Shown here one piece after another: positions 2,804-16,037 of a DNA stretch of 16,097 nucleotides. Below the pieces are notes generated by a model. The model was not told where the DNA came from and made no database searches. It saw only the letters and a list, made by a program, of their open reading frames with translations. This DNA is from a virus. Made by a program: the position numbers and the translations under genes. The DNA lies in the UHGV virus genome UHGV-1827629; one strand, 5' to 3'. How positions within the stretch are numbered: position 1 is the first letter of the stretch; each line of letters opens with the position of its first letter.

Positions 2804-3594
2804 TGGATAAGCCCTCTCTCTTTCCCTCGCTGATACTCTTCCCAAAGCCATTGGGCCGGGGTTAGAGCTCCGAGAGTCGCTGCGTTTGGCATGCACCCGA
2901 AGCTTTTTCCTTCCGGGTGATAACCGGCCTGACGGCTCACGTGATTTGTCGGGATCACTTCATCAGAATTCTCGAGCGCCAGGACGGGGGATGGTATTTT
3001 TTCCCCACCAGCAACTTTCAGCGCCCATTCCTCAAGTTTTTTTGACGCGTATTTTTCAGTTTCAGCCTCGCTCAGCTGGCGCTGGTACATCGCTCTGCGC
3101 GTATCGGTCACAATCCAGTACATGACGTCATGAGACCACGGGAAAGCTTCTGCTCCGCCGGTATGCAGCCCTTTTTCGCGGCTATACCGATGGAACTCAT
3201 TCATCACATCAGCCAGGCCAATGCCAAGTACCGTGCCGCTATCCTTGCACCATTTGATGAATTGCCCCGGAGAAGGCCAGAAGGGTGATTCACTGGCGCG
3301 GGCATGCCGTACACCTGCGGAAAGTTGTTCGCGGGTGCGGATCCCATTCTCTGAAAACGCTGCGATCCACTGACGCTTTGCCGTTTTCTCGTCTGCGTCA
3401 GTTTTCAGGTTTGTCTGCGTAGACGCAGGGAAAATCTGCTTCAGCTGCCGAAAGAGAGAATCAACGAGGCTTTCCGCTTCGGGATTTATTACCTTCTGCT
3501 GGTCGGCGTTTCCGTTAGCCATTCTGGATAGCAGTGCCCCGTCACGCCCGTTAACTGCCTGCACAAGTTGGTTATTCACAGGAAGTCCTCCCAT
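2800..3594 (-). CDS. P: Replication protein P-like (DnaB helicase loader)
   Basis: Central block FPAS...RQWIAAFSENGIRTREQLSAGVRHARASESPFWPSPGQFIKWC resembles lambda P (FPAS...RQWVLAFRENGITTMEQVNAGMRVARRQNRPFLPSPGQFVAWC, from memory). Start uncertain: ATG at 3594 overlaps O by 19 nt; alternative ATG at 3522. Confidence 0.75.
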   Translation of the reverse strand: MGGLPVNNQLVQAVNGRDGALLSRMANGNADQQKVINPEAESLVDSLFRQLKQIFPASTQTNLKTDADEKTAKRQWIAAFSENGIRTREQLSAGVRHARASESPFWPSPGQFIKWCKDSGTVLGIGLADVMNEFHRYSREKGLHTGGAEAFPWSHDVMYWIVTDTRRAMYQRQLSEAETEKYASKKLEEWALKVAGGEKIPSPVLALENSDEVIPTNHVSRQAGYHPEGKSFGCMPNAATLGALTPAQWLWEEYQRGKERGLIQ

Positions 3595-4265
3595 CCCTCG
3601 CGGCTGTTCCAGTGAGGCGTTTCCTGCTCAGCACGTCCACGTTTAGCCAGCGGGTTAACCCTGGCGTTTCGAATCCAGACCCTGAAAGCCGAATTCCAGT
3701 CGATCAGCAGCGTGCCGCGGGAAAGGTGATAGTCCCGGAAGTTCAGCAGCTCAGTTTCAATGCTCACCCCCTTCTCGGCAGCCATGGCAATGTGATCTGC
3801 TGATGGCTTAAACAGGGGCGGGAATGGAATCTCCCCGTTTGGTGAAATCCCTATCCGACGTTTTGCGGCTTCGCTCATAAAACCTTCGCGCCCAGAGAGA
3901 GAGTTAGGTTCATTGACTGGTTCAAAAGAGTGACTGATTCTGGGTGCAGCTCCTGCACTACCCCCTAGTGAATCTGTTGCACTACCTAGTGAATCTCCTG
4001 CACTACCCCCTAGTGAATCTGTTGCACTAGGTAAGGTCAGGATGTAGATGTTTGTAGAGTTCCCTTTTGGCCCCTTCCTGAATACTTTTTTCAGTAATCC
4101 AGATTGGCAGAGATCATCAATGTGACTCATGACTGACCGCTTGCTAATTTCGCATTGGTCAGCAATGTATTGATAGCTTGGCCAGCATTCCCCTTGATCG
4201 CTTGCGTTATCTGCCAACTTCAGGAGTACGAGCTTACGCAATGGGTTACCAACCTTAATTTGCAT
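3576..4265 (-). CDS. O: Replication initiator O-like protein (replisome-organizer HTH N-terminus; ori iterons inside the gene)
   Basis: N-terminus [45 protein letters not shown] looks like a replisome-organizer HTH; gene lies between cII and P; contains direct repeats translated as [26 protein letters not shown]. Start ambiguous: ATG 4265 (SD-like GGTGA), 4277 or 4286; the track's 4376 is a TTG extension overlapping the zinc-finger gene. Confidence 0.7.
3952..4030. repeat. Candidate replication-origin iterons: alternating 24-bp (CCTGCACTACCCCCTAGTGAATCT) and 21-bp (GTTGCACTACCTAGTGAATCT) direct repeats, each with a CACTA...TAGTG dyad
   Basis: Read directly: units at 3952-3975, 3976-3996, 3997-4020 and partial 4021-4030, all inside the O reading frame, as lambda ori iterons are. 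Confidence 0.65.
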
Positions 4266-5146: not shown

Positions 5147-5851
5147 ATGAAAACATTCGCAGATCGACTCAACGCGGCTATGAGAGCCGCAGGCATATCC
5201 CAAGGGCAGCTGGCTGAGAAAGTCGGCATATCTCAACCTGCAATTCAGAAAATGACATCAGGCAAAACCACAGGCAGCCGTAAGATGGTTGAGCTTGCTC
5301 ATGCATTGAACGTGCGTCCGGAATGGCTCAGTTCGGGCATAGGCTCAATGCAGGACGAAGGACGCAAGGACTCCGCTATCCCACCAGAATCGGAATGGGG
5401 TAAAGTTGACGCTTGGGATAGCAAAACAGATCTGCCAGATGACGAGGTCGAAGTGCCATATCTGAAAGACATAGAACTTGCGTGTGGTGATGGTTCCTGC
5501 TTGGAAGATGACTATAACGGATTCAAACTTCGTTTTGCGAAGTCTACCCTTCGTAAGGTGGGAGCCCAGAAAGATAGCGTGCTGTGCTTCCCGGCATCAG
5601 GAAATAGCATGGAGCCCATGATCCCGGAAGGGACGACGGTCGCCATCAACACGAACGACAAAAAGATCGTTGATGGCAAGGTTTATGCAATAAGCCAGGA
5701 CGGATGGAAAAGGCTAAAATCCATTTATCGTGTGAGTCCTACCCGCATCGTGATTCGCAGCTTCAACAGTGAAGAGTATCCTGATGAAGAAGCGGATATC
5801 GAGAGCGTAGAGATTATTGGTCGCATGTTCTGGACATCTACTATCTGGTAA
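5147..5851 (+). CDS. cI: CI-like phage repressor (N-terminal HTH, C-terminal S24 LexA-like peptidase domain)
   Basis: HTH motif QGQLAEKVGISQPAIQKM; C-terminal GNSMEPMIPEGTTVAINT...WKRLK is the S24 Ser/Lys signature; divergent from cro across OR; no SD and ATG close to the putative -10. Confidence 0.85.
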   Translation: MKTFADRLNAAMRAAGISQGQLAEKVGISQPAIQKMTSGKTTGSRKMVELAHALNVRPEWLSSGIGSMQDEGRKDSAIPPESEWGKVDAWDSKTDLPDDEVEVPYLKDIELACGDGSCLEDDYNGFKLRFAKSTLRKVGAQKDSVLCFPASGNSMEPMIPEGTTVAINTNDKKIVDGKVYAISQDGWKRLKSIYRVSPTRIVIRSFNSEEYPDEEADIESVEIIGRMFWTSTIW

Positions 5852-5865
5852 TCAAGAGGGAAGGG

Positions 5866-6555
5866 ATGAAATTAGAACTAATAGCATTATCTTTACTGGC
5901 TTTAACTACGAACGCAATCGGCTCTAGCACCCTGAGCTGCGATTACGCTAAGTCGGACATCAGTAATGGAGCTAATGCTCCAATGATTCCTAGCGGAAAA
6001 GGCACTGTCGAATTTGATGGAAAATCCTTTAAAGCCACACGTCCAAATGGTGGTGTGATCATTTCACCAATAATCAGTGAACAAAAAAATGGAATGCTTT
6101 TTCTTGACGACAAGACAAAAGTGTTCGCGGCAAGCCTTTCTAAAACTGATTTCGCTATCTCTGACCGAATTGCTCGAATTACTGAGCAATGGGCCAACTG
6201 CATTGATGTTAGTCCATCGCCGAACAATTCAGATAACGACAAACCGGCAACTGCCTGGAAATATAGGTCTCTCACGAAGCAGGAGATAAATGCTGTTGAG
6301 GCAGCAGTGAAAGACCAATTGAAGGATCCAGAAAGTGCCAGATTCAAGCACTCTAAGTTTGTGAGCAACGGGAAAGGCGCTTACTGCGGCCTGGTTAATT
6401 CCAAAAACTCATATGGCGGCTATGCTGGAAACACTCCTTTCATGGTCATGCTTATCAACAATGGCAAACCTCACGCTGGCTTTATTGGTATGGGCGGAGA
6501 TGATGCCGAGACCCTGTCAACGCTATCCGTCTGCAAAGACAGTGGTTATTTCTAA
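5866..6555 (+). CDS. Secreted (signal-peptide) protein of unknown function, 229 aa, 4 Cys; moron in the rexAB-equivalent slot
   Basis: N-terminus MKLELIALSLLALTTNAIG-SS is a typical Sec signal peptide (AxG cleavage site, not a canonical lipobox); SD GAGGGAAGGG before ATG; visibly more AT-rich than flanks with rare Leu/Ile codons; followed by an intrinsic terminator. Confidence 0.65.
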   Translation: MKLELIALSLLALTTNAIGSSTLSCDYAKSDISNGANAPMIPSGKGTVEFDGKSFKATRPNGGVIISPIISEQKNGMLFLDDKTKVFAASLSKTDFAISDRIARITEQWANCIDVSPSPNNSDNDKPATAWKYRSLTKQEINAVEAAVKDQLKDPESARFKHSKFVSNGKGAYCGLVNSKNSYGGYAGNTPFMVMLINNGKPHAGFIGMGGDDAETLSTLSVCKDSGYF

Positions 6556-6596: not shown

Positions 6597-6660
6597 TTGC
6601 CAGAAATCCCCCCACGCCACATTTTTTACAAAAATAAATTCATTTAGCTATCAGTGCATT

Positions 6661-6720
6661 ATAACTTATGTGATGATAATTATAAATTAGGTTATTGCCA
6701 TCACTCATAACTAAGGTTAT
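6661..6720. promoter_or_regulatory. OL: three operators ATAACTTATGTGAT (6661-6674), ATAAATTAGGTTAT (6682-6695), ATAACTAAGGTTAT (6707-6720), inverted relative to OR
   Basis: Reverse complements fit the OR consensus ATAACCTnAGTTAT; spacing 21 and 25 bp; positioned as in lambda between the cI operon terminator and the leftward early operon. Confidence 0.7.
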
Positions 6721-6723
6721 CTT
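6695..6723 (+). promoter_or_regulatory. Candidate pL (-35 TTGCCA 6695-6700, 17-bp spacer, -10 TATCTT 6718-6723)
   Basis: Sigma70-like hexamers with canonical spacing, overlapped by OL sites 1 and 2. Inference only. Confidence 0.5.
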
Positions 6724-7349
6724 TAATCCATCGAAACGAAACATCGACAGCTGAGCGAAGTTAGCCAGCGGCGGACAGCAAGTCGCCTGCTTCTTTAACA
6801 AATCAGACTGAGTGACAGGCAAGCCGTAGCTCTCCTGGCAAAAAGAAATGGCACCCGATGGGATCGAGGTAAGCACTGAGTCCGTATGCGTACGGTAGGT
6901 GTAGAGGACCACGCTGCGATGAGCTGATAAGTCACTCAATTTGAAGCGCTCCGATGATGGGGCGCTGATTCAACTTAGAGGAGTGATTCCAATGAAGAAC
7001 TAAAGCGGACAGACCGCAGCCTAAAGGCAATGCAGCAGTAATGATGCCGCCCTGAGTCGCCGAATGGCGAGCCTGTGTAGTGATGGGTCAAGGTTCTTAT
7101 ATCAAAACAAGCTCCGGTAAAGCAGCGCGAACGCCAGACGCGCACCGGTTATGAGCGGCGATGAGCGACAAGGTCTCAAGGGCATGTGCGCGGCCACTGC
7201 GAGAGTGTGGCGAAGTTTACCAGCAGCTCTTTGCGAGGGGCTGACGGTAAACAAAAAGAGGAGTGTGTATGGCAGATAAAAAAACGGCGCCACTACTGCT
7301 TAACGTAGACGCCAGCGAGGTACTTACTCAGACCGGGGAGCTTTTAAAG

Positions 7350-7571
7350 TTACTTGAACTTCCAGCCAGTTCCTTTCAGGGAATTCCTGAGCATGTCGTC
7401 GATCTGTTTTTTGACCGTGTCCGTGGCCTGATTGACAACATCGTCCTTAGTGATTTCTCGACCACAGTCAGCACAACTGACGCCGGTGAAATTTGTCTCA
7501 AAGTCAAAATCATCGGGCTGGTTGAACATCTCACTTCCGCAGTCAGGGCACACGGTCCGCATGGTTTGCAT
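7350..7571 (-). CDS. Small zinc-ribbon protein (73 aa; CPDCG...CADCG)
   Basis: Two CxxCG knuckles 22 residues apart; AAAGGA SD 7 nt before ATG (cat 7569-7571); by my hand count this frame is more coding-like than the overlapping + frame. The + ORF 7269-7610 is an unresolved alternative. Confidence 0.5.
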   Translation of the reverse strand: MQTMRTVCPDCGSEMFNQPDDFDFETNFTGVSCADCGREITKDDVVNQATDTVKKQIDDMLRNSLKGTGWKFK

Positions 7572-7829
7572 GAATATATCCTTTCTACTGTTGGGGAGAT
7601 TAAAGAGTAAGCGATTTCTTGCTGTTGGGGAATAGCGGGAAAGCGCGCGCCGGGCGCGGATAAATACCCCGGCACTAACTGGAATGTTTTGGGCTGGCAG
7701 ACGGTTATCAGCTAGTTGGTGAGGTAATGGCTCACCAAGGCGACGACGGCCTTCCCTGCTGCTTGAAAGCGGGGAGCCAGCACCAAAACATTTCTCCCGC
7801 ATCAGCGGGTAACGACAGAGGGTAAGGCT

Positions 7830-8105
7830 ATGAAAACAAGTAGCGGACAAGAGATTTTAAAGGGATTCAATGTTCGTGATATCTCTGCTGATTATGACGA
7901 GCCAAGGTTTGATGTTTTGTTTGTCCACGATGATGGCAAATGCCGGTATTCAAACGATGTTTTTGGTTCTGAGCAAGAAGCCATCAGTTACGCAGAAACA
8001 TGTAACGCCAGCACAGCAGACGATGAATGCTGGGACTACTACCAGCACTCTTCAAGCAGCGCCGACTGGAAGCTGATTCATCACATTGAAGCTAAAGCCG
8101 CCTAA
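7830..8105 (+). CDS. Hypothetical early protein (91 aa, acidic, Cys-containing)
   Basis: SD AGAGGGTAAGG before ATG at 7830; stop codon lies in the loop of an intrinsic terminator. Confidence 0.55.
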   Translation: MKTSSGQEILKGFNVRDISADYDEPRFDVLFVHDDGKCRYSNDVFGSEQEAISYAETCNASTADDECWDYYQHSSSSADWKLIHHIEAKAA

Positions 8106-8119
8106 CCAGCGGCTTTTTT
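8096..8119 (+). terminator. Rho-independent terminator (tL1-like)
   Basis: AGCCGC-CTAACCA-GCGGCT hairpin followed by TTTTTTA (8114-8120). Confidence 0.65.
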
Positions 8120-8260
8120 ATCGGCCATACATAGGCAGATTTTCGAGTCTGCCCATTTATGACAACCGGCGGCCATCCACCGCCCATTGAAACACTGAAT
8201 AAATGCGTTGAAGTCTTGTATTAACCGTTCCGTTCGCCGCGATAAGGCCAAGAGGAAATC

Positions 8261-14997: not shown

Positions 14998-16037
14998 AAG
15001 CTGAAGCGTGGCGTGTAGACAAGATGGGGGAATATAAGGCGCACACTTTTGATGAAGCATGTGTGCGCTGGCTGAACGAGAAGCAGCATAAGAAGAGCCT
15101 GGACGATGATAAAAGCCGGATCGGATTCTGGCTTATGCATTTCCGGGGAATGGACCTGTCCGAGATTACAGAGGATAAAATTCTCTCGGCCGCCAGTGGA
15201 ATGGTAAACAGGAAGCACAGACTTAATTGGGAGTCACGGAGGGATAGTTGCCTCAGGATGGGTAAGCCTGTTCCCGAGTACAAGGAAAAGCCAGCAGCAC
15301 AGGCAACCAGAACAACACACCTTGCTTTCATTCGGGCTTTGCTCAGATGTGCGGCTAACGAATGGCGATGGATAGCCAAAGCGCCGAATATCAAATGCCC
15401 TGTTCCAAAGAACAAACGTATTCGATGGCTGACAAAAGATGAGGCGCAGTCATTAATACGTGAATTGCCTGACCACTTTAAGCCGGTGGTTGTTTTTGCT
15501 CTGGCAACGGGATTGAGGCGATCCAACATAACGGATCTGGAATGGTCTCAGATAGACATGCAGAGGAAGGTTGCGTGGATACACCCAGAGGATGCAAAAG
15601 CAGGCAGGGCGATTGGGGTCGCCCTTAATGATTCTGCATGCAGGGTATTACGCGATCAGGTAGGAAAGCACAATCGGTGGGTGTTCGTTCACACTGAATC
15701 ATCTGTTCGTCCGGATGGAACCAGGACTAAAGAGGTCAGGAAGATGAGGAGCGATGCTAACACAGCGTGGAGGGCTGCGTTAAGAAGAGCCGGAATTGAA
15801 AACTTCCGTTTCCATGATTTGCGGCACACCTGGGCAAGCTGGCTTGTGCAGTCCGGCGTTCCGTTATCAGCGCTTCAGGAAATGGGAGGTTGGGAGAGCA
15901 TTGAAATGGTTCAGCGCTATGCTCACTTAGCACCGAATCACCTGACGCAACATGCGATGCAAATTGACTCATTTCTGGCAGGAAATGGCACAAATATGGC
16001 ACAAGGCACGTTTGCAGACTTGGTGAATATCGCGTGA
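14874..16037 (+). CDS. int: Tyrosine site-specific integrase (P22/P4-like)
   Basis: N-terminal arm-binding motif [31 protein letters not shown]; C-terminal catalytic region [39 protein letters not shown] with the R..H.R.Y residues; strong SD AGGAGGG; ends 16 bp before the tRNA 3' end. Confidence 0.95.

What the first reader, a model, noticed from the sequence alone, without database searches (positions are those of the whole stretch)
6721..7268. About 550 bp downstream of OL/pL with no credible ORF and no N-like gene
In lambda the first pL gene, N, starts about 220 bp after the promoter. Here roughly 550 bp follow OL with only short or implausible ORFs, yet an intrinsic terminator lies further downstream at 8096-8119 that should need antitermination. 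The leader contains palindromes (for example CCGTATGCGTACGG at about 6882-6895) and an orphan strong SD with a three-codon mini-ORF (AGAGGAG then ATG AAG AAC TAA at about 6978-7003). This fits an RNA-based element (HK022-type put RNA, a nut site for a factor encoded elsewhere, or an sRNA) but nothing is proven.
Basis: partly seen in the sequence, partly recalled or inferred. Interest (0 to 1): 0.5.

Follow-up and report, generated by a model that had tools for sequence, protein, structure and literature searches.

The report
Modular structured-RNA leader after phage pL
The long gene-free stretch after this prophage's early promoter consists of conserved RNA elements (a ribosomal-operon-type BoxA site, two folded RNA domains missing from the RNA family catalogue, and a conserved three-codon mini-gene), sits exactly where a close relative carries its anti-termination RNA, and so probably marks an undescribed protein-N-independent way for lambda-like phages to keep early transcription going.

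Summary
Window 6724-7268 has no credible gene, and no N-family protein is found in the pL operon (through int) or in the pR genes present. The terminator at 8094-8119 is real.

The leader is a mosaic of conserved RNA modules:
- an rrn-like hairpin plus BoxA (6770-6801);
- a hairpin, then SD plus mini-ORF (6977-7003), conserved in 92 of 106 homologues;
- a ~210-nt pseudoknotted domain "C" (7004-7212) with strong covariation, more than 120 viral-contig hits, restricted to Enterobacterales.

Neither B nor C matches any Rfam family.

The HK022/HK639-type put core is absent. This cassette replaces HK639's put between identical flanks.

Best reading: BoxA plus B is an N-independent, Nus-factor-dependent processivity/antitermination leader. 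C with its mini-ORF behaves like a mobile accessory RNA of unknown function.

The untranslated leader probably runs to 7829, because the "first gene" at 7269 looks like the shadow of a minus-strand zinc-ribbon gene. Function is inferred, not shown.

The parts
6695..6723 (+). pL promoter (-35 TTGCCA, -10 TATCTT) inside the OL operator region; transcript start near 6730
   Evidence: Consensus scan. Aligns with phi80's annotated pL -35/-10 and HK639's putative pL. In 12 E. coli genomes, homology to the leader begins at ~6722, i.e. at the immunity/leader boundary.
6724..6769 (+). 5' leader segment shared with HK639, phi80 and many prophages
   Evidence: 94-97% identity to HK639 and phi80.
6770..6787 (+). 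Hairpin GGCGGACAGCAAGTCGCC immediately 5' of BoxA (the position boxB holds in rrn leaders)
   Evidence: Conserved in phi80-type and window-type leaders. Same order as the rrnB hairpin-BoxA arrangement.
6788..6801 (+). BoxA-like TGCTTCTTTAACAA, followed by ATCAGAC and a GU-rich stretch as in the rrnB leader
   Evidence: 10 of 11 positions match the BoxA consensus GYTCTTTAANA (PMC5725501). rrnB has GCTCTTTAACA...ATCAGAC...TGTGTGGG. All 104 unique copies of module B carry a BoxA with 0-1 mismatch 62-72 nt upstream.
6810..6937 (+). Module B: multi-branched structured RNA domain closed by GAGUGAC (6810-6816) / GUCACUC (6931-6937)
   Evidence: RNAalifold on 26 type-1 copies: 43 pairs, 5 with compensatory changes. 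The closing-stem pair occurs as C-G, A-U and U-A. More than 120 viral-contig hits. No Rfam match.
6882..6895 (+).
   Evidence: Invariant except for one compensatory A-U to G-C change in L188.
6945..6966 (+). Hairpin AGCGCUCC-GAUGAU-GGGGCGCU between module B and the SD
   Evidence: -15.7 kcal/mol, z = -3.8. Conserved with G-C to G-U variation.
6977..7003 (+). Shine-Dalgarno AGAGGAG (6977-6983) and mini-ORF ATG AAG AAC TAA (6992-7003)
   Evidence: SD plus a 1-3 codon mini-ORF ending a few nucleotides before helix P1 in 92 of 106 unique copies. The peptide is not conserved (MKH, MKQ, M*, MVH and others).
7004..7212 (+). Module C: ~210-nt structured RNA. Helices: P1 7005-08/7014-17, P1b 7019-21/7026-28, P2 7032-37/7045-50, P3 7057-61/7066-70, P4a 7072-75/7084-87, pseudoknot 7079-81/7111-13, P5 7114-18/7144-48 and 7125-29/7139-43, P6 7155-56/7165-66, P7 7193-97/7207-11
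   Evidence: 64-sequence MAFFT alignment. RNAalifold gives 17 of 27 pairs with compensatory changes. For the hand-specified structure, 87.4% of cells are paired vs 30-40% when slid, 269 compensatory cells vs at most 96, and 0 of 500 shuffles reach it. G-U pairs lie on the + strand. More than 120 viral contigs, 118 of 5426 E. coli genomes and 41 species genomes carry it. No Rfam hit.
7215..7252 (+). Hairpin UUUACC-AGCAGCUC...GGGGCUGA-CGGUAAA: the only part of HK639's annotated 'putL-like' feature retained; it lies 3' of the HK022-like put core
   Evidence: 98% identity to HK639 L001:3242 onward. -20.5 kcal/mol, z = -3.5.
7350..7571 (-). ECs_2282-family CxxC...CxxC zinc-ribbon gene, antisense to pL transcription; the + ORF 7269-7610 is probably its shadow
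   Evidence: NCBIfam NF047912, 80.6 bits vs cut-off 37. Against L129 the minus frame is 71% identical and the plus frame 59%. Substitutions fall mainly at minus-frame third positions. RefSeq annotates the minus-strand gene in L005 and L007.
7704..7750 (+). 47-nt copy of a 16S rRNA hairpin (Rfam SSU model positions 237-283) in the distal leader
   Evidence: cmscan SSU_rRNA_bacteria, 31.3 bits, E = 3.9e-8. The same insert is seen in L148.
7777..8105 (+). Conserved translation-initiation region (7777-7829) and the probable first real + strand gene (7830-8105, 91 aa, phrog_33140)
   Evidence: The same upstream sequence precedes phi80 'N', HK639_44 and this ORF, yet the three proteins are unrelated.
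8094..8184 (+). Intrinsic terminator (stem 8094-8116, U-run to 8119) followed by two more hairpins (8134-8153, 8167-8184)
   Evidence: Folding. 97% identical to the HK639 region carrying two annotated terminators.

Best explanation
The leader is a cassette of cis-acting RNA modules that takes the place of a put RNA or an N/nut system.

Proposed mechanism:
1. About 60 nt into the pL transcript, an rrn-type hairpin plus BoxA recruits host NusB-NusE(S10). With NusA, NusG and SuhB this forms a Nus-factor complex on RNA polymerase.
2. As at rRNA operons and CRISPR arrays, that complex protects a long untranslated transcript from Rho. Here the transcript is about 1.1 kb, G-rich and C-poor.
3. By holding the 5' strand near the polymerase, the complex helps the adjacent domain B close its long-range helix. 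The strand next to BoxA pairs with a strand 120 nt downstream, as in the 16S processing stem.
4. BoxA plus domain B is the candidate N-independent device that lets polymerase pass the terminators at 8094-8184, which HK639 passes with put.
5. The SD/mini-ORF plus domain C is a separate, mobile structured-RNA unit. It also occurs after Q/tR' and beside anti-defence genes. A ribosome terminating on the mini-ORF would sit on helix P1, so C's fold may depend on translation. What C does is unknown.

Shown here: the modules, their conservation and structure, the obligate BoxA-B linkage, the absence of put and of N, and the occupation of the same slot as put.

Inferred: Nus binding, antitermination activity, and any role for C.
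For: 1. Same slot as put. The window and HK639 are 94-98% identical on both sides (window 6625-6773 and 7216-7691). Between those flanks HK639, Ec205 and L6-21 carry a 92-nt put, and the window carries the 442-nt BoxA-B-miniORF-C cassette. The downstream terminators are shared.
2. BoxA. It matches 10 of 11 consensus positions and is followed by the rrnB-like ATCAGAC and a GU-rich stretch. All 104 unique module B copies have a BoxA with 0-1 mismatch at fixed spacing. In 33 non-lambdoid prophages the match is perfect.
3. No N. There is none in the window. None appears among 145 small ORFs within 2.5 kb downstream of module B in 35 loci, while two positive controls scored. phi80's annotated 'N' has no N-family signature, and the first gene after the shared initiation region differs between phages.
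4. B and C are real structured RNAs on the transcribed strand.
5. The leader has positive GC skew (+0.10 to +0.19), the opposite of a rut site.
6. BoxA/Nus complexes are known to block Rho on untranslated RNA without N (PMC7665894, PMC5725501).
Against: - No experiment links B or C to termination.
- rrn-type Nus complexes are known mainly to counter Rho, not intrinsic terminators. Read-through of 8094-8119 therefore needs an additional, unproven activity of B.
- The window's BoxA departs from the consensus at one position.
- Covariation in B is modest: 5 of 43 pairs, because the copies are very similar. The single-sequence folding z-score is only -1.8.
- Module C co-occurs with genuine N genes (mEp213; yong1 matches phrog_271 only weakly, E 8.4e-6) and with Q. 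It is therefore not a substitute for them.
- An unrecognised protein factor is not excluded.
- The King et al. 2011 paper on HK639 put could not be read.
Confidence: 0.45

Rival explanations
1. Module C (perhaps also B) is an accessory non-coding RNA that works by binding some host or defence component, or acts in trans after processing. It merely rides in strongly transcribed leaders. BoxA and the mini-ORF serve only to get it transcribed, folded and stabilised.
For: - C sits at the classic accessory-gene ('moron') sites of lambdoid phages. Those sites are: after the repressor/pL (21 loci); directly after Q and its terminator (13 loci, PF06323 or PF03589); and downstream of Acb2/Tad1-like anti-defence genes (10 loci).
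- It is inserted or absent as a discrete cassette in otherwise identical phi80-type leaders.
- Loop sequences are nearly invariant, which suggests a macromolecular partner.
- C co-occurs with N and Q, so it is not needed for antitermination there.
Against: - No promoter or terminator of its own. P7 is not followed by a U-run in most copies, and only 12 of 106 have a terminator-like site within 120 nt.
- No known partner and no similarity to any Rfam family.
- This does not explain module B's obligate link to BoxA.
Confidence: 0.25
2. The mini-ORF plus module C is a translation- or mRNA-stability device. A ribosome loaded on the strong SD and terminating at the edge of P1 remodels the RNA or blocks 5'-end-dependent RNase E and Rho. 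This would control expression or stability of the downstream genes (N, lysis genes and others).
For: - A stop codon lies a few nucleotides before P1 in 87% of copies, although the peptide varies.
- The 3' strand of P1 (CCGC) can instead pair with GCGYG near the 3' end, which would make a ribosome-sensitive switch.
- C often lies directly upstream of N genes.
- Precedents from my own knowledge: the lambda N leader, BoxA-mediated translational repression (PMC5725501) and the lambda bar minigenes.
Against: - The downstream genes and their distances from C vary (18-406 nt).
- The alternative pairing is almost invariant, so it is untested by covariation.
- A 210-nt pseudoknotted fold is more than a stabiliser needs.
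Confidence: 0.15
3. BoxA plus module B is a nut-like site for a phage antiterminator protein that is not N-family. The protein would be encoded in the window (for example the 91-aa ORF at 7830, the DUF1482 protein or the zinc-ribbon protein) or elsewhere.
For: - BoxA followed by a structured element is the nut layout.
- Small uncharacterised proteins follow in every locus.
- mEp021 shows that atypical N-like proteins exist (PMC11893012).
Against: - The gene after the shared initiation region is different and unrelated in the window, phi80 and HK639.
- No arginine-rich-motif candidate is conserved across loci.
- No N-family hit in 145 ORFs.
Confidence: 0.1
4. The leader contains an HK022/HK639-type put RNA that binds the beta' zinc-binding domain.
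For: - The closest phage relative, HK639, has an annotated putL-like RNA at this position.
- The window keeps the 3' 57 nt of that annotated feature.
Against: - The HK022-homologous put core is exactly the part that is replaced.
- The core pattern is absent from the whole window with up to 3 mismatches.
Confidence: 0.03

Closest known systems
HK022 putL/putR and the HK639 putL-like antiterminator RNA
   Same: - Lies just downstream of pL in an N-less lambdoid phage.
- Occupies the identical slot, between identical flanks, as the put of HK639, Ec205 and L6-21.
- Followed by the same terminators.
- An RNA-only candidate.
   Different: - No sequence or motif similarity to the two-stem put core.
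- 442 nt against about 70-90 nt.
- Carries a BoxA, which put lacks; by my own knowledge put works without Nus factors.
- Activity is untested.
Lambda-type nut site (boxA-boxB) with N protein
   Same: - A BoxA near the 5' end of the pL transcript is followed by RNA structure.
- A long structured leader precedes the first gene.
   Different: - No N-family protein.
- No 15-nt boxB hairpin with a GNRA-like loop after BoxA.
- The hairpin precedes BoxA, as in rrn leaders.
- The BoxA is closer to the rrn consensus than lambda's is, by my recollection of the lambda nut boxA sequences.
rrn leader antitermination signal (boxB-boxA-boxC; NusA/B/E/G, SuhB, S4) and BoxA leaders of CRISPR arrays
   Same: - Hairpin, then GCU(U)CUUUAACAA, then AUCAGAC and a GU-rich stretch, as in rrnB.
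- Heads a long untranslated, highly structured RNA.
- The strand next to BoxA forms a long-range closing helix, like the 16S processing stem.
- N-independent.
   Different: - Phage context.
- The enclosed RNA (B) is about 130 nt and unrelated to rRNA.
- It would need to overcome intrinsic terminators, which rrn-type complexes do poorly.
- Nus binding has not been tested.
Lambda bar minigenes and start-stop mini-ORFs
   Same: A strong SD is followed by a 1-3 codon ORF in the pL operon. The peptide is irrelevant.
   Different: - Here the mini-ORF is tightly coupled to a large structured RNA.
- It is conserved across about 90% of more than 100 copies.
- No link to peptidyl-tRNA drop-off is known.

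Membership tests
HK022-type put RNA | Conserved two-stem core (GAACGGCNCG... and GGCGNGNUCANGANGA...CAAU) | tested here: not met
   The core shared by HK022 putL/putR and HK639 is absent. The pattern gives 0 matches with up to 3 mismatches. The window lacks HK639 L001:3150-3241.
HK022-type put RNA | Located shortly downstream of an early promoter in a phage without N | tested here: met
   The leader starts at pL. There is no N-family protein.
HK022-type put RNA | Acts in cis through the beta' zinc-binding domain, independently of Nus factors | not testable with these tools
   Needs rpoC (Y75N) and nus mutant hosts or in vitro transcription.
Lambda-type N/nut antitermination | BoxA sequence in the early transcript | tested here: met
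   CTTCTTTAACA at 6790-6800 matches 10 of 11 positions of GYTCTTTAANA.
Lambda-type N/nut antitermination | boxB hairpin a few nucleotides 3' of BoxA | tested here: not met
   In the predicted and consensus folds of this stretch, the closing strand of the 130-nt domain B starts 9 nt after BoxA, and no short hairpin lies between them. The small hairpin lies 5' of BoxA. phi80-type relatives do have a CACG-NAAA-CGUG hairpin.
Lambda-type N/nut antitermination | N-family protein with an arginine-rich motif encoded in the early operon | tested here: not met
   No hit to PF11438, PF25694 or phrog_271 in the window or in 145 ORFs from 35 related loci. Positive controls hit.
rrn-type BoxA / Nus-factor leader (also CRISPR-array leaders) | Consensus BoxA GYTCTTTAANA near the 5' end of a long untranslated RNA | tested here: met
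   One mismatch in the window and a perfect match in 33 type-1 relatives. The leader is untranslated for about 1.1 kb apart from the mini-ORF.
rrn-type BoxA / Nus-factor leader (also CRISPR-array leaders) | Flanking boxB hairpin (5') and GU-rich boxC (3') | tested here: inconclusive
   The 5' hairpin is present. The 3' AUCAGAC is identical to rrnB, but UGAGUGACAGG only resembles UGUGUGGG.
rrn-type BoxA / Nus-factor leader (also CRISPR-array leaders) | Binding of NusB/NusE and Nus-dependent resistance to Rho | not testable with these tools
   Needs ChIP or reporter assays in nusB, nusE or suhB mutants, with and without bicyclomycin.
Any Rfam 15 family | Covariance-model match at or near the gathering score | tested here: not met
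   No hit at gathering threshold. Only noise (E > 2) in 6724-7268 with the laxest filters. No tRNA or tmRNA.

The most novel reading that the evidence does not exclude
BoxA plus module B is a new class of cis-acting, N-independent but Nus-factor-dependent processive antiterminator RNA. It would be used by phi80-like and HK639-like lambdoid phages and by a large group of non-lambdoid Enterobacterales prophages. In addition, the mini-ORF plus module C would be a new, widespread translation-coupled structured RNA whose fold is set by a ribosome terminating at its 5' edge.
Probability: 0.3. Interest if true: 0.85.

Novelty: new variant of a known kind. Interest (0 to 1): 0.68.

Why it matters
Early antitermination in lambdoid phages is explained by two paradigms: N/nut and the rare put RNA. 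Many lambdoid phages have no recognisable N, and published genome analyses simply guess "maybe put" (PMC12315714).

This leader offers a concrete third candidate. It is a consensus-type BoxA fused to a conserved structured RNA, found in more than 100 distinct phage loci. Those include the classical phage phi80, whose annotated "N" shows no N-family signature.

It also uncovers a second abundant structured RNA with a conserved mini-ORF. That RNA sits at accessory-gene hot spots of Enterobacterales phages, is missing from Rfam, and is unannotated in RefSeq genomes.

Both elements can be tested directly with simple reporter fusions and existing nus and rpoC mutants. Either result would extend what BoxA/Nus complexes and phage leader RNAs are known to do.

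Tried and rejected
- **Rfam.** Scanned at gathering threshold and, for three sub-regions, at E up to 10. Nothing for the leader. The only real hit is the 16S fragment at 7704-7750.
- **ARAGORN.** No tRNA or tmRNA.
- **put.** The core pattern and the stem-I pattern found no put; the stem-I matches were at chance level.
- **N search.** PHROG, Pfam and NCBIfam found none. A crude arginine-rich-motif screen of small ORFs gave only out-of-frame artefacts, plus one 94-aa protein (MADDDYTMGEFW...) present in a few loci but not in the window.
- **Small ORFs in the leader.** No family hits and no conserved frame.
- **All-against-all column covariation.** My own scan was too noisy to use for long-range pairs. 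Helices were defined by inspection and then tested with the count of structure pairs.
- **Single-sequence folding of module B.** Not significantly better than shuffles (z = -1.8). Support for B comes from the alignment only.
- **Are B and C rRNA-derived?** Rejected.
- **Is the ORF at 7830 related to phi80 'N' or HK639_44?** Rejected.
- **King et al. 2011 on HK639 put.** Could not be retrieved. What I say about put beyond PMC9378689 and the GenBank annotation rests on my own knowledge.
- **The Pas sRNA preprint and the mEpimmI paper.** Checked; they describe unrelated elements.
Full report
**Layout.** All coordinates below are on the + strand.
- A cI-like repressor (5147-5851; phrog_4) and a 229-aa ORF (5866-6555) are followed by a terminator.
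- The OL/pL region comes next. The promoter TTGCCA-17-TATCTT at 6695-6723 aligns with phi80's annotated pL hexamers and HK639's putative pL.
- The pL transcript therefore starts near 6730 and runs rightward through the finding.

**Checking the observation.**
- None of the six ORFs overlapping 6724-7268 on either strand hits Pfam or NCBIfam.
- PHROG and Pfam scans of every sizeable ORF found recombination, xis and int genes on the pL side (7830 to int at 16037) and cro, cII and replication genes on the pR side, but no N-family protein.
- The same libraries do recognise the two N proteins of mEp213.
- The terminator is real: stem 8094-8116, U-run to 8119, -12.7 kcal/mol.
- With the two hairpins that follow it, the terminator is 97% identical to the HK639 region carrying two annotated terminators.

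**Relation to HK639 and put.**
- The nearest phage relative is HK639, whose GenBank record annotates a "putL-like antiterminator RNA" downstream of pL.
- The window matches HK639 at 6625-6773 (94%) and 7216-7691 (98%). Between those blocks, 442 nt of the window replace 92 nt of HK639.
- Comparing HK639 with HK022 located the put core shared by HK022 putL, putR and HK639 at L001 ~3165-3240. That is exactly the replaced segment.
- A degenerate put-core pattern has no match in the window with up to three mismatches.
- Other E. coli prophages (strain 205, L6-21) carry the HK639-type put in the same slot.
- The window is therefore not a put carrier. A different cassette occupies put's place.

**What the cassette contains.**

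*(i) BoxA region.*
- A hairpin (6770-6787) is followed by TGCTTCTTTAACAA (6788-6801). This matches 10 of 11 positions of the BoxA consensus GYTCTTTAANA derived by Baniulyte et al. (PMC5725501).
- The E. coli rrnB leader reads hairpin-ACTGCTCTTTAACAATTTATCAGACAATCTGTGTGGG. The window reads hairpin-TGCTTCTTTAACAAATCAGACTGAGTGACAGG.
- The resemblance thus extends beyond BoxA itself. It is the only BoxA-like site in the window.

*(ii) Module B (6810-6937).*
- It is 86% identical to a sequence downstream of the repressor in non-lambdoid prophages of the vB_EcoM-606R2 type. It is more distantly similar to the phi80 leader.
- All 104 unique copies carry a BoxA with at most one mismatch, 62-72 nt upstream. 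The match is perfect in 33 type-1 copies.
- RNAalifold on 26 type-1 copies gives a multi-branched fold closed by GAGUGAC/GUCACUC. The variable pair in that stem occurs as C-G, A-U and U-A.
- Four further pairs show compensatory change.

*(iii) Hairpin, SD and mini-ORF.* A hairpin (6945-6966) is followed by the SD and mini-ORF (6977-7003).

*(iv) Module C (7004-7212).*
- Distant BLAST found it in Klebsiella phages RothC/D, mEp213, mEp237, phiKO2, Hafnia phage yong1, Stx2c phages, Providencia phage PSTCR7lys and others. It is never annotated.
- A 30-nt degenerate pattern hit the 120-contig limit in IMG/VR.
- The same pattern hit 41 species-representative genomes. All are Enterobacterales except one probable contaminant.
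- BLAST finds it in 118 of 5426 complete E. coli genomes.

**Evidence that module C is a structured RNA.**
- The test used a 64-sequence MAFFT alignment that was not fitted to any structure.
- A 43-pair structure, including an H-type pseudoknot, has 87.4% of cells paired against 30-40% when partners are slid.
- It has 269 doubly changed cells against at most 96 for the slid controls, and no shuffle out of 500 reaches any of the five measures.
- RNAalifold independently recovers P2, P5 and P7, with 17 of 27 pairs compensatory.
- G-U pairs lie on the + strand, so the structure belongs to the pL-sense transcript.
- Peripheral helices vary in length while junction and loop sequences are nearly invariant. 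That pattern is typical of an RNA with a specific partner.
- Indels are overwhelmingly not multiples of three (248 of 287), which rules out a conserved small protein.
- Neither B nor C matches any Rfam 15 family, even with the laxest filters.

**The mini-ORF.**
- Of 106 unique copies of C, 92 have an SD and an ORF of 1-3 sense codons ending a few nucleotides before P1. The peptides vary: MKH, MKQ, M-stop, MVH and others.
- Selection is therefore on ribosome loading and termination at the 5' edge of C, not on a peptide.
- The 3' strand of P1 (CCGC) can alternatively pair with GCGYG near the 3' end. A ribosome sitting on P1 could therefore switch the global fold. This is speculation.

**Genomic contexts of C.** Nearest upstream genes fall into three main groups:
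- cI/LexA-type repressors (21 loci, the pL context);
- Q antiterminators of two families (13 loci), where C follows a terminator-like hairpin directly after Q;
- Acb2/Tad1-like anti-defence proteins (10 loci).

Downstream genes include genuine N proteins (mEp213; a weaker N-like match in yong1) and DUF2560. These positions are the classic accessory-gene sites of lambdoid genomes. C is present or absent as a cassette in otherwise identical phi80-type leaders. C therefore behaves as a mobile accessory RNA and is not a replacement for N or Q.

**Contexts of BoxA plus B.**
- No N-family protein was found among 145 small ORFs within 2.5 kb downstream in 35 loci of both types. Two positive controls were found.
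- phi80's annotated "N" has no N-family signature.
- The gene that follows the conserved initiation region (window 7777-7829) is unrelated in the window, phi80 and HK639.
- The only conserved pL-proximal components in this phage group are therefore RNA modules.
- In the non-lambdoid prophages the order is promoter, perfect BoxA, B, small gene, terminator, early genes.

**Extent of the leader.**
- The + ORF at 7269-7610 (HK639_45) has no family hit.
- The overlapping minus-strand ORF (7350-7571; CPDC...CADC) scores 80.6 bits on NF047912 and has a good SD.
- It is more conserved than the plus frame (71% vs 59% against L129).
- Its substitutions are biased to its third codon positions (24 vs 13 and 10).
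- The pL transcript is thus probably untranslated, apart from the mini-ORF, until 7830. That is about 1.1 kb.
- Across the leader GC skew is positive (+0.10 to +0.19), the opposite of a C-rich, G-poor Rho loading site.

**Mechanism proposed.**
- Established knowledge: BoxA-bound NusB/NusE, with NusA, NusG and SuhB, can block Rho on untranslated RNA without N. This complex also chaperones long-range RNA folding at rRNA operons and CRISPR arrays (PMC5725501, PMC7665894).
- Proposal: the leader's BoxA does the same for this long structured leader.
- Proposal: BoxA plus B supplies the read-through function that put supplies in HK639.
- The basis is the same-slot substitution and the shared terminators. 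This is inference. rrn-type complexes are poor against intrinsic terminators, so B would need an activity of its own.
- I put this reading at about 0.45.

**Rival explanations.** The alternatives are:
- an accessory or trans-acting RNA, mainly for C;
- a translation or mRNA-stability device;
- a nut site for an unrecognised protein;
- put itself, which is essentially excluded.

**Verdict.** The finding is real and more interesting than a missing gene. It contains two widespread structured RNA families that are not catalogued in Rfam, one obligately tied to BoxA and one to a mini-ORF. They lie in an N-less, put-less pL leader. Function remains to be tested.

Noticed in passing
window 7704-7750 (+); also L148 about 170-230 nt after its module B': A 47-nt stretch (GUUAUCAGCUAGUUGGUGAGGUAAUGGCUCACCAAGGCGACGACGGC) matches positions 237-283 of the bacterial 16S rRNA model (E = 3.9e-8). 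It sits in a variable hairpin slot of the distal leader. By my recollection the sequence is closer to non-E. coli gammaproteobacterial 16S (not tested here). A 16S rRNA hairpin copy inside a leader that also has an rrn-like BoxA is curious.
   Followed up: partly
window 7269-7610 (+) versus 7350-7571 (-): The ORF annotated in HK639 as gene 45 (+ strand) is probably a shadow of a minus-strand ECs_2282-family zinc-ribbon gene. That gene is transcribed against pL. RefSeq annotates the minus-strand gene in some E. coli genomes.
   Followed up: yes
window 7777-7829; L002 (phi80) ~2865-2917; L001 (HK639) ~3786-3835: An almost identical translation-initiation region (CATTTCTCCCGCATCAGCGGGTAACGACAGAGGGTAAGG) precedes three unrelated first genes in three phages. 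It looks like a conserved expression slot with exchangeable cargo.
   Followed up: partly
L002 2918-3214 (phi80 gene annotated N): phi80's annotated 'early transcription antiterminator protein N' has no hit to the N families (PF11438, PF25694, phrog_271). By eye its translation shows no obvious N-terminal arginine-rich motif. The same protein also occurs in prophage L6-21, which carries an HK639-type put.
   Followed up: partly
IMG/VR loci upstream of module C (cluster of 10; e.g. L013 2162-2455): In ten loci the gene just upstream of the mini-ORF/module C unit is an Acb2/Tad1-hairpin-domain protein, a family of anti-CBASS/anti-Thoeris nucleotide sponges. Downstream is often DUF2560.
   Followed up: partly
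L137 3180-3235: In a 606R2-like E. coli prophage, module B is followed by an SD, a mini-ORF (ATG CAC AAG TAA) and only the first ~25 nt of module C. A small zinc-ribbon gene comes next. This appears to be a truncated remnant of the C cassette.
   Followed up: no
window 5866-6555 (+): A 229-aa ORF with a signal/lipobox-like N-terminus sits between cI and the terminator before OL, the position of rex in lambda. It matches only PHROGs of unknown function.
   Followed up: no
L259 (Vagococcus sp. WN89Y contig): This is the only module C hit outside Enterobacterales, on a Firmicute assembly. It is probably contamination of the assembly and was not examined.
   Followed up: no
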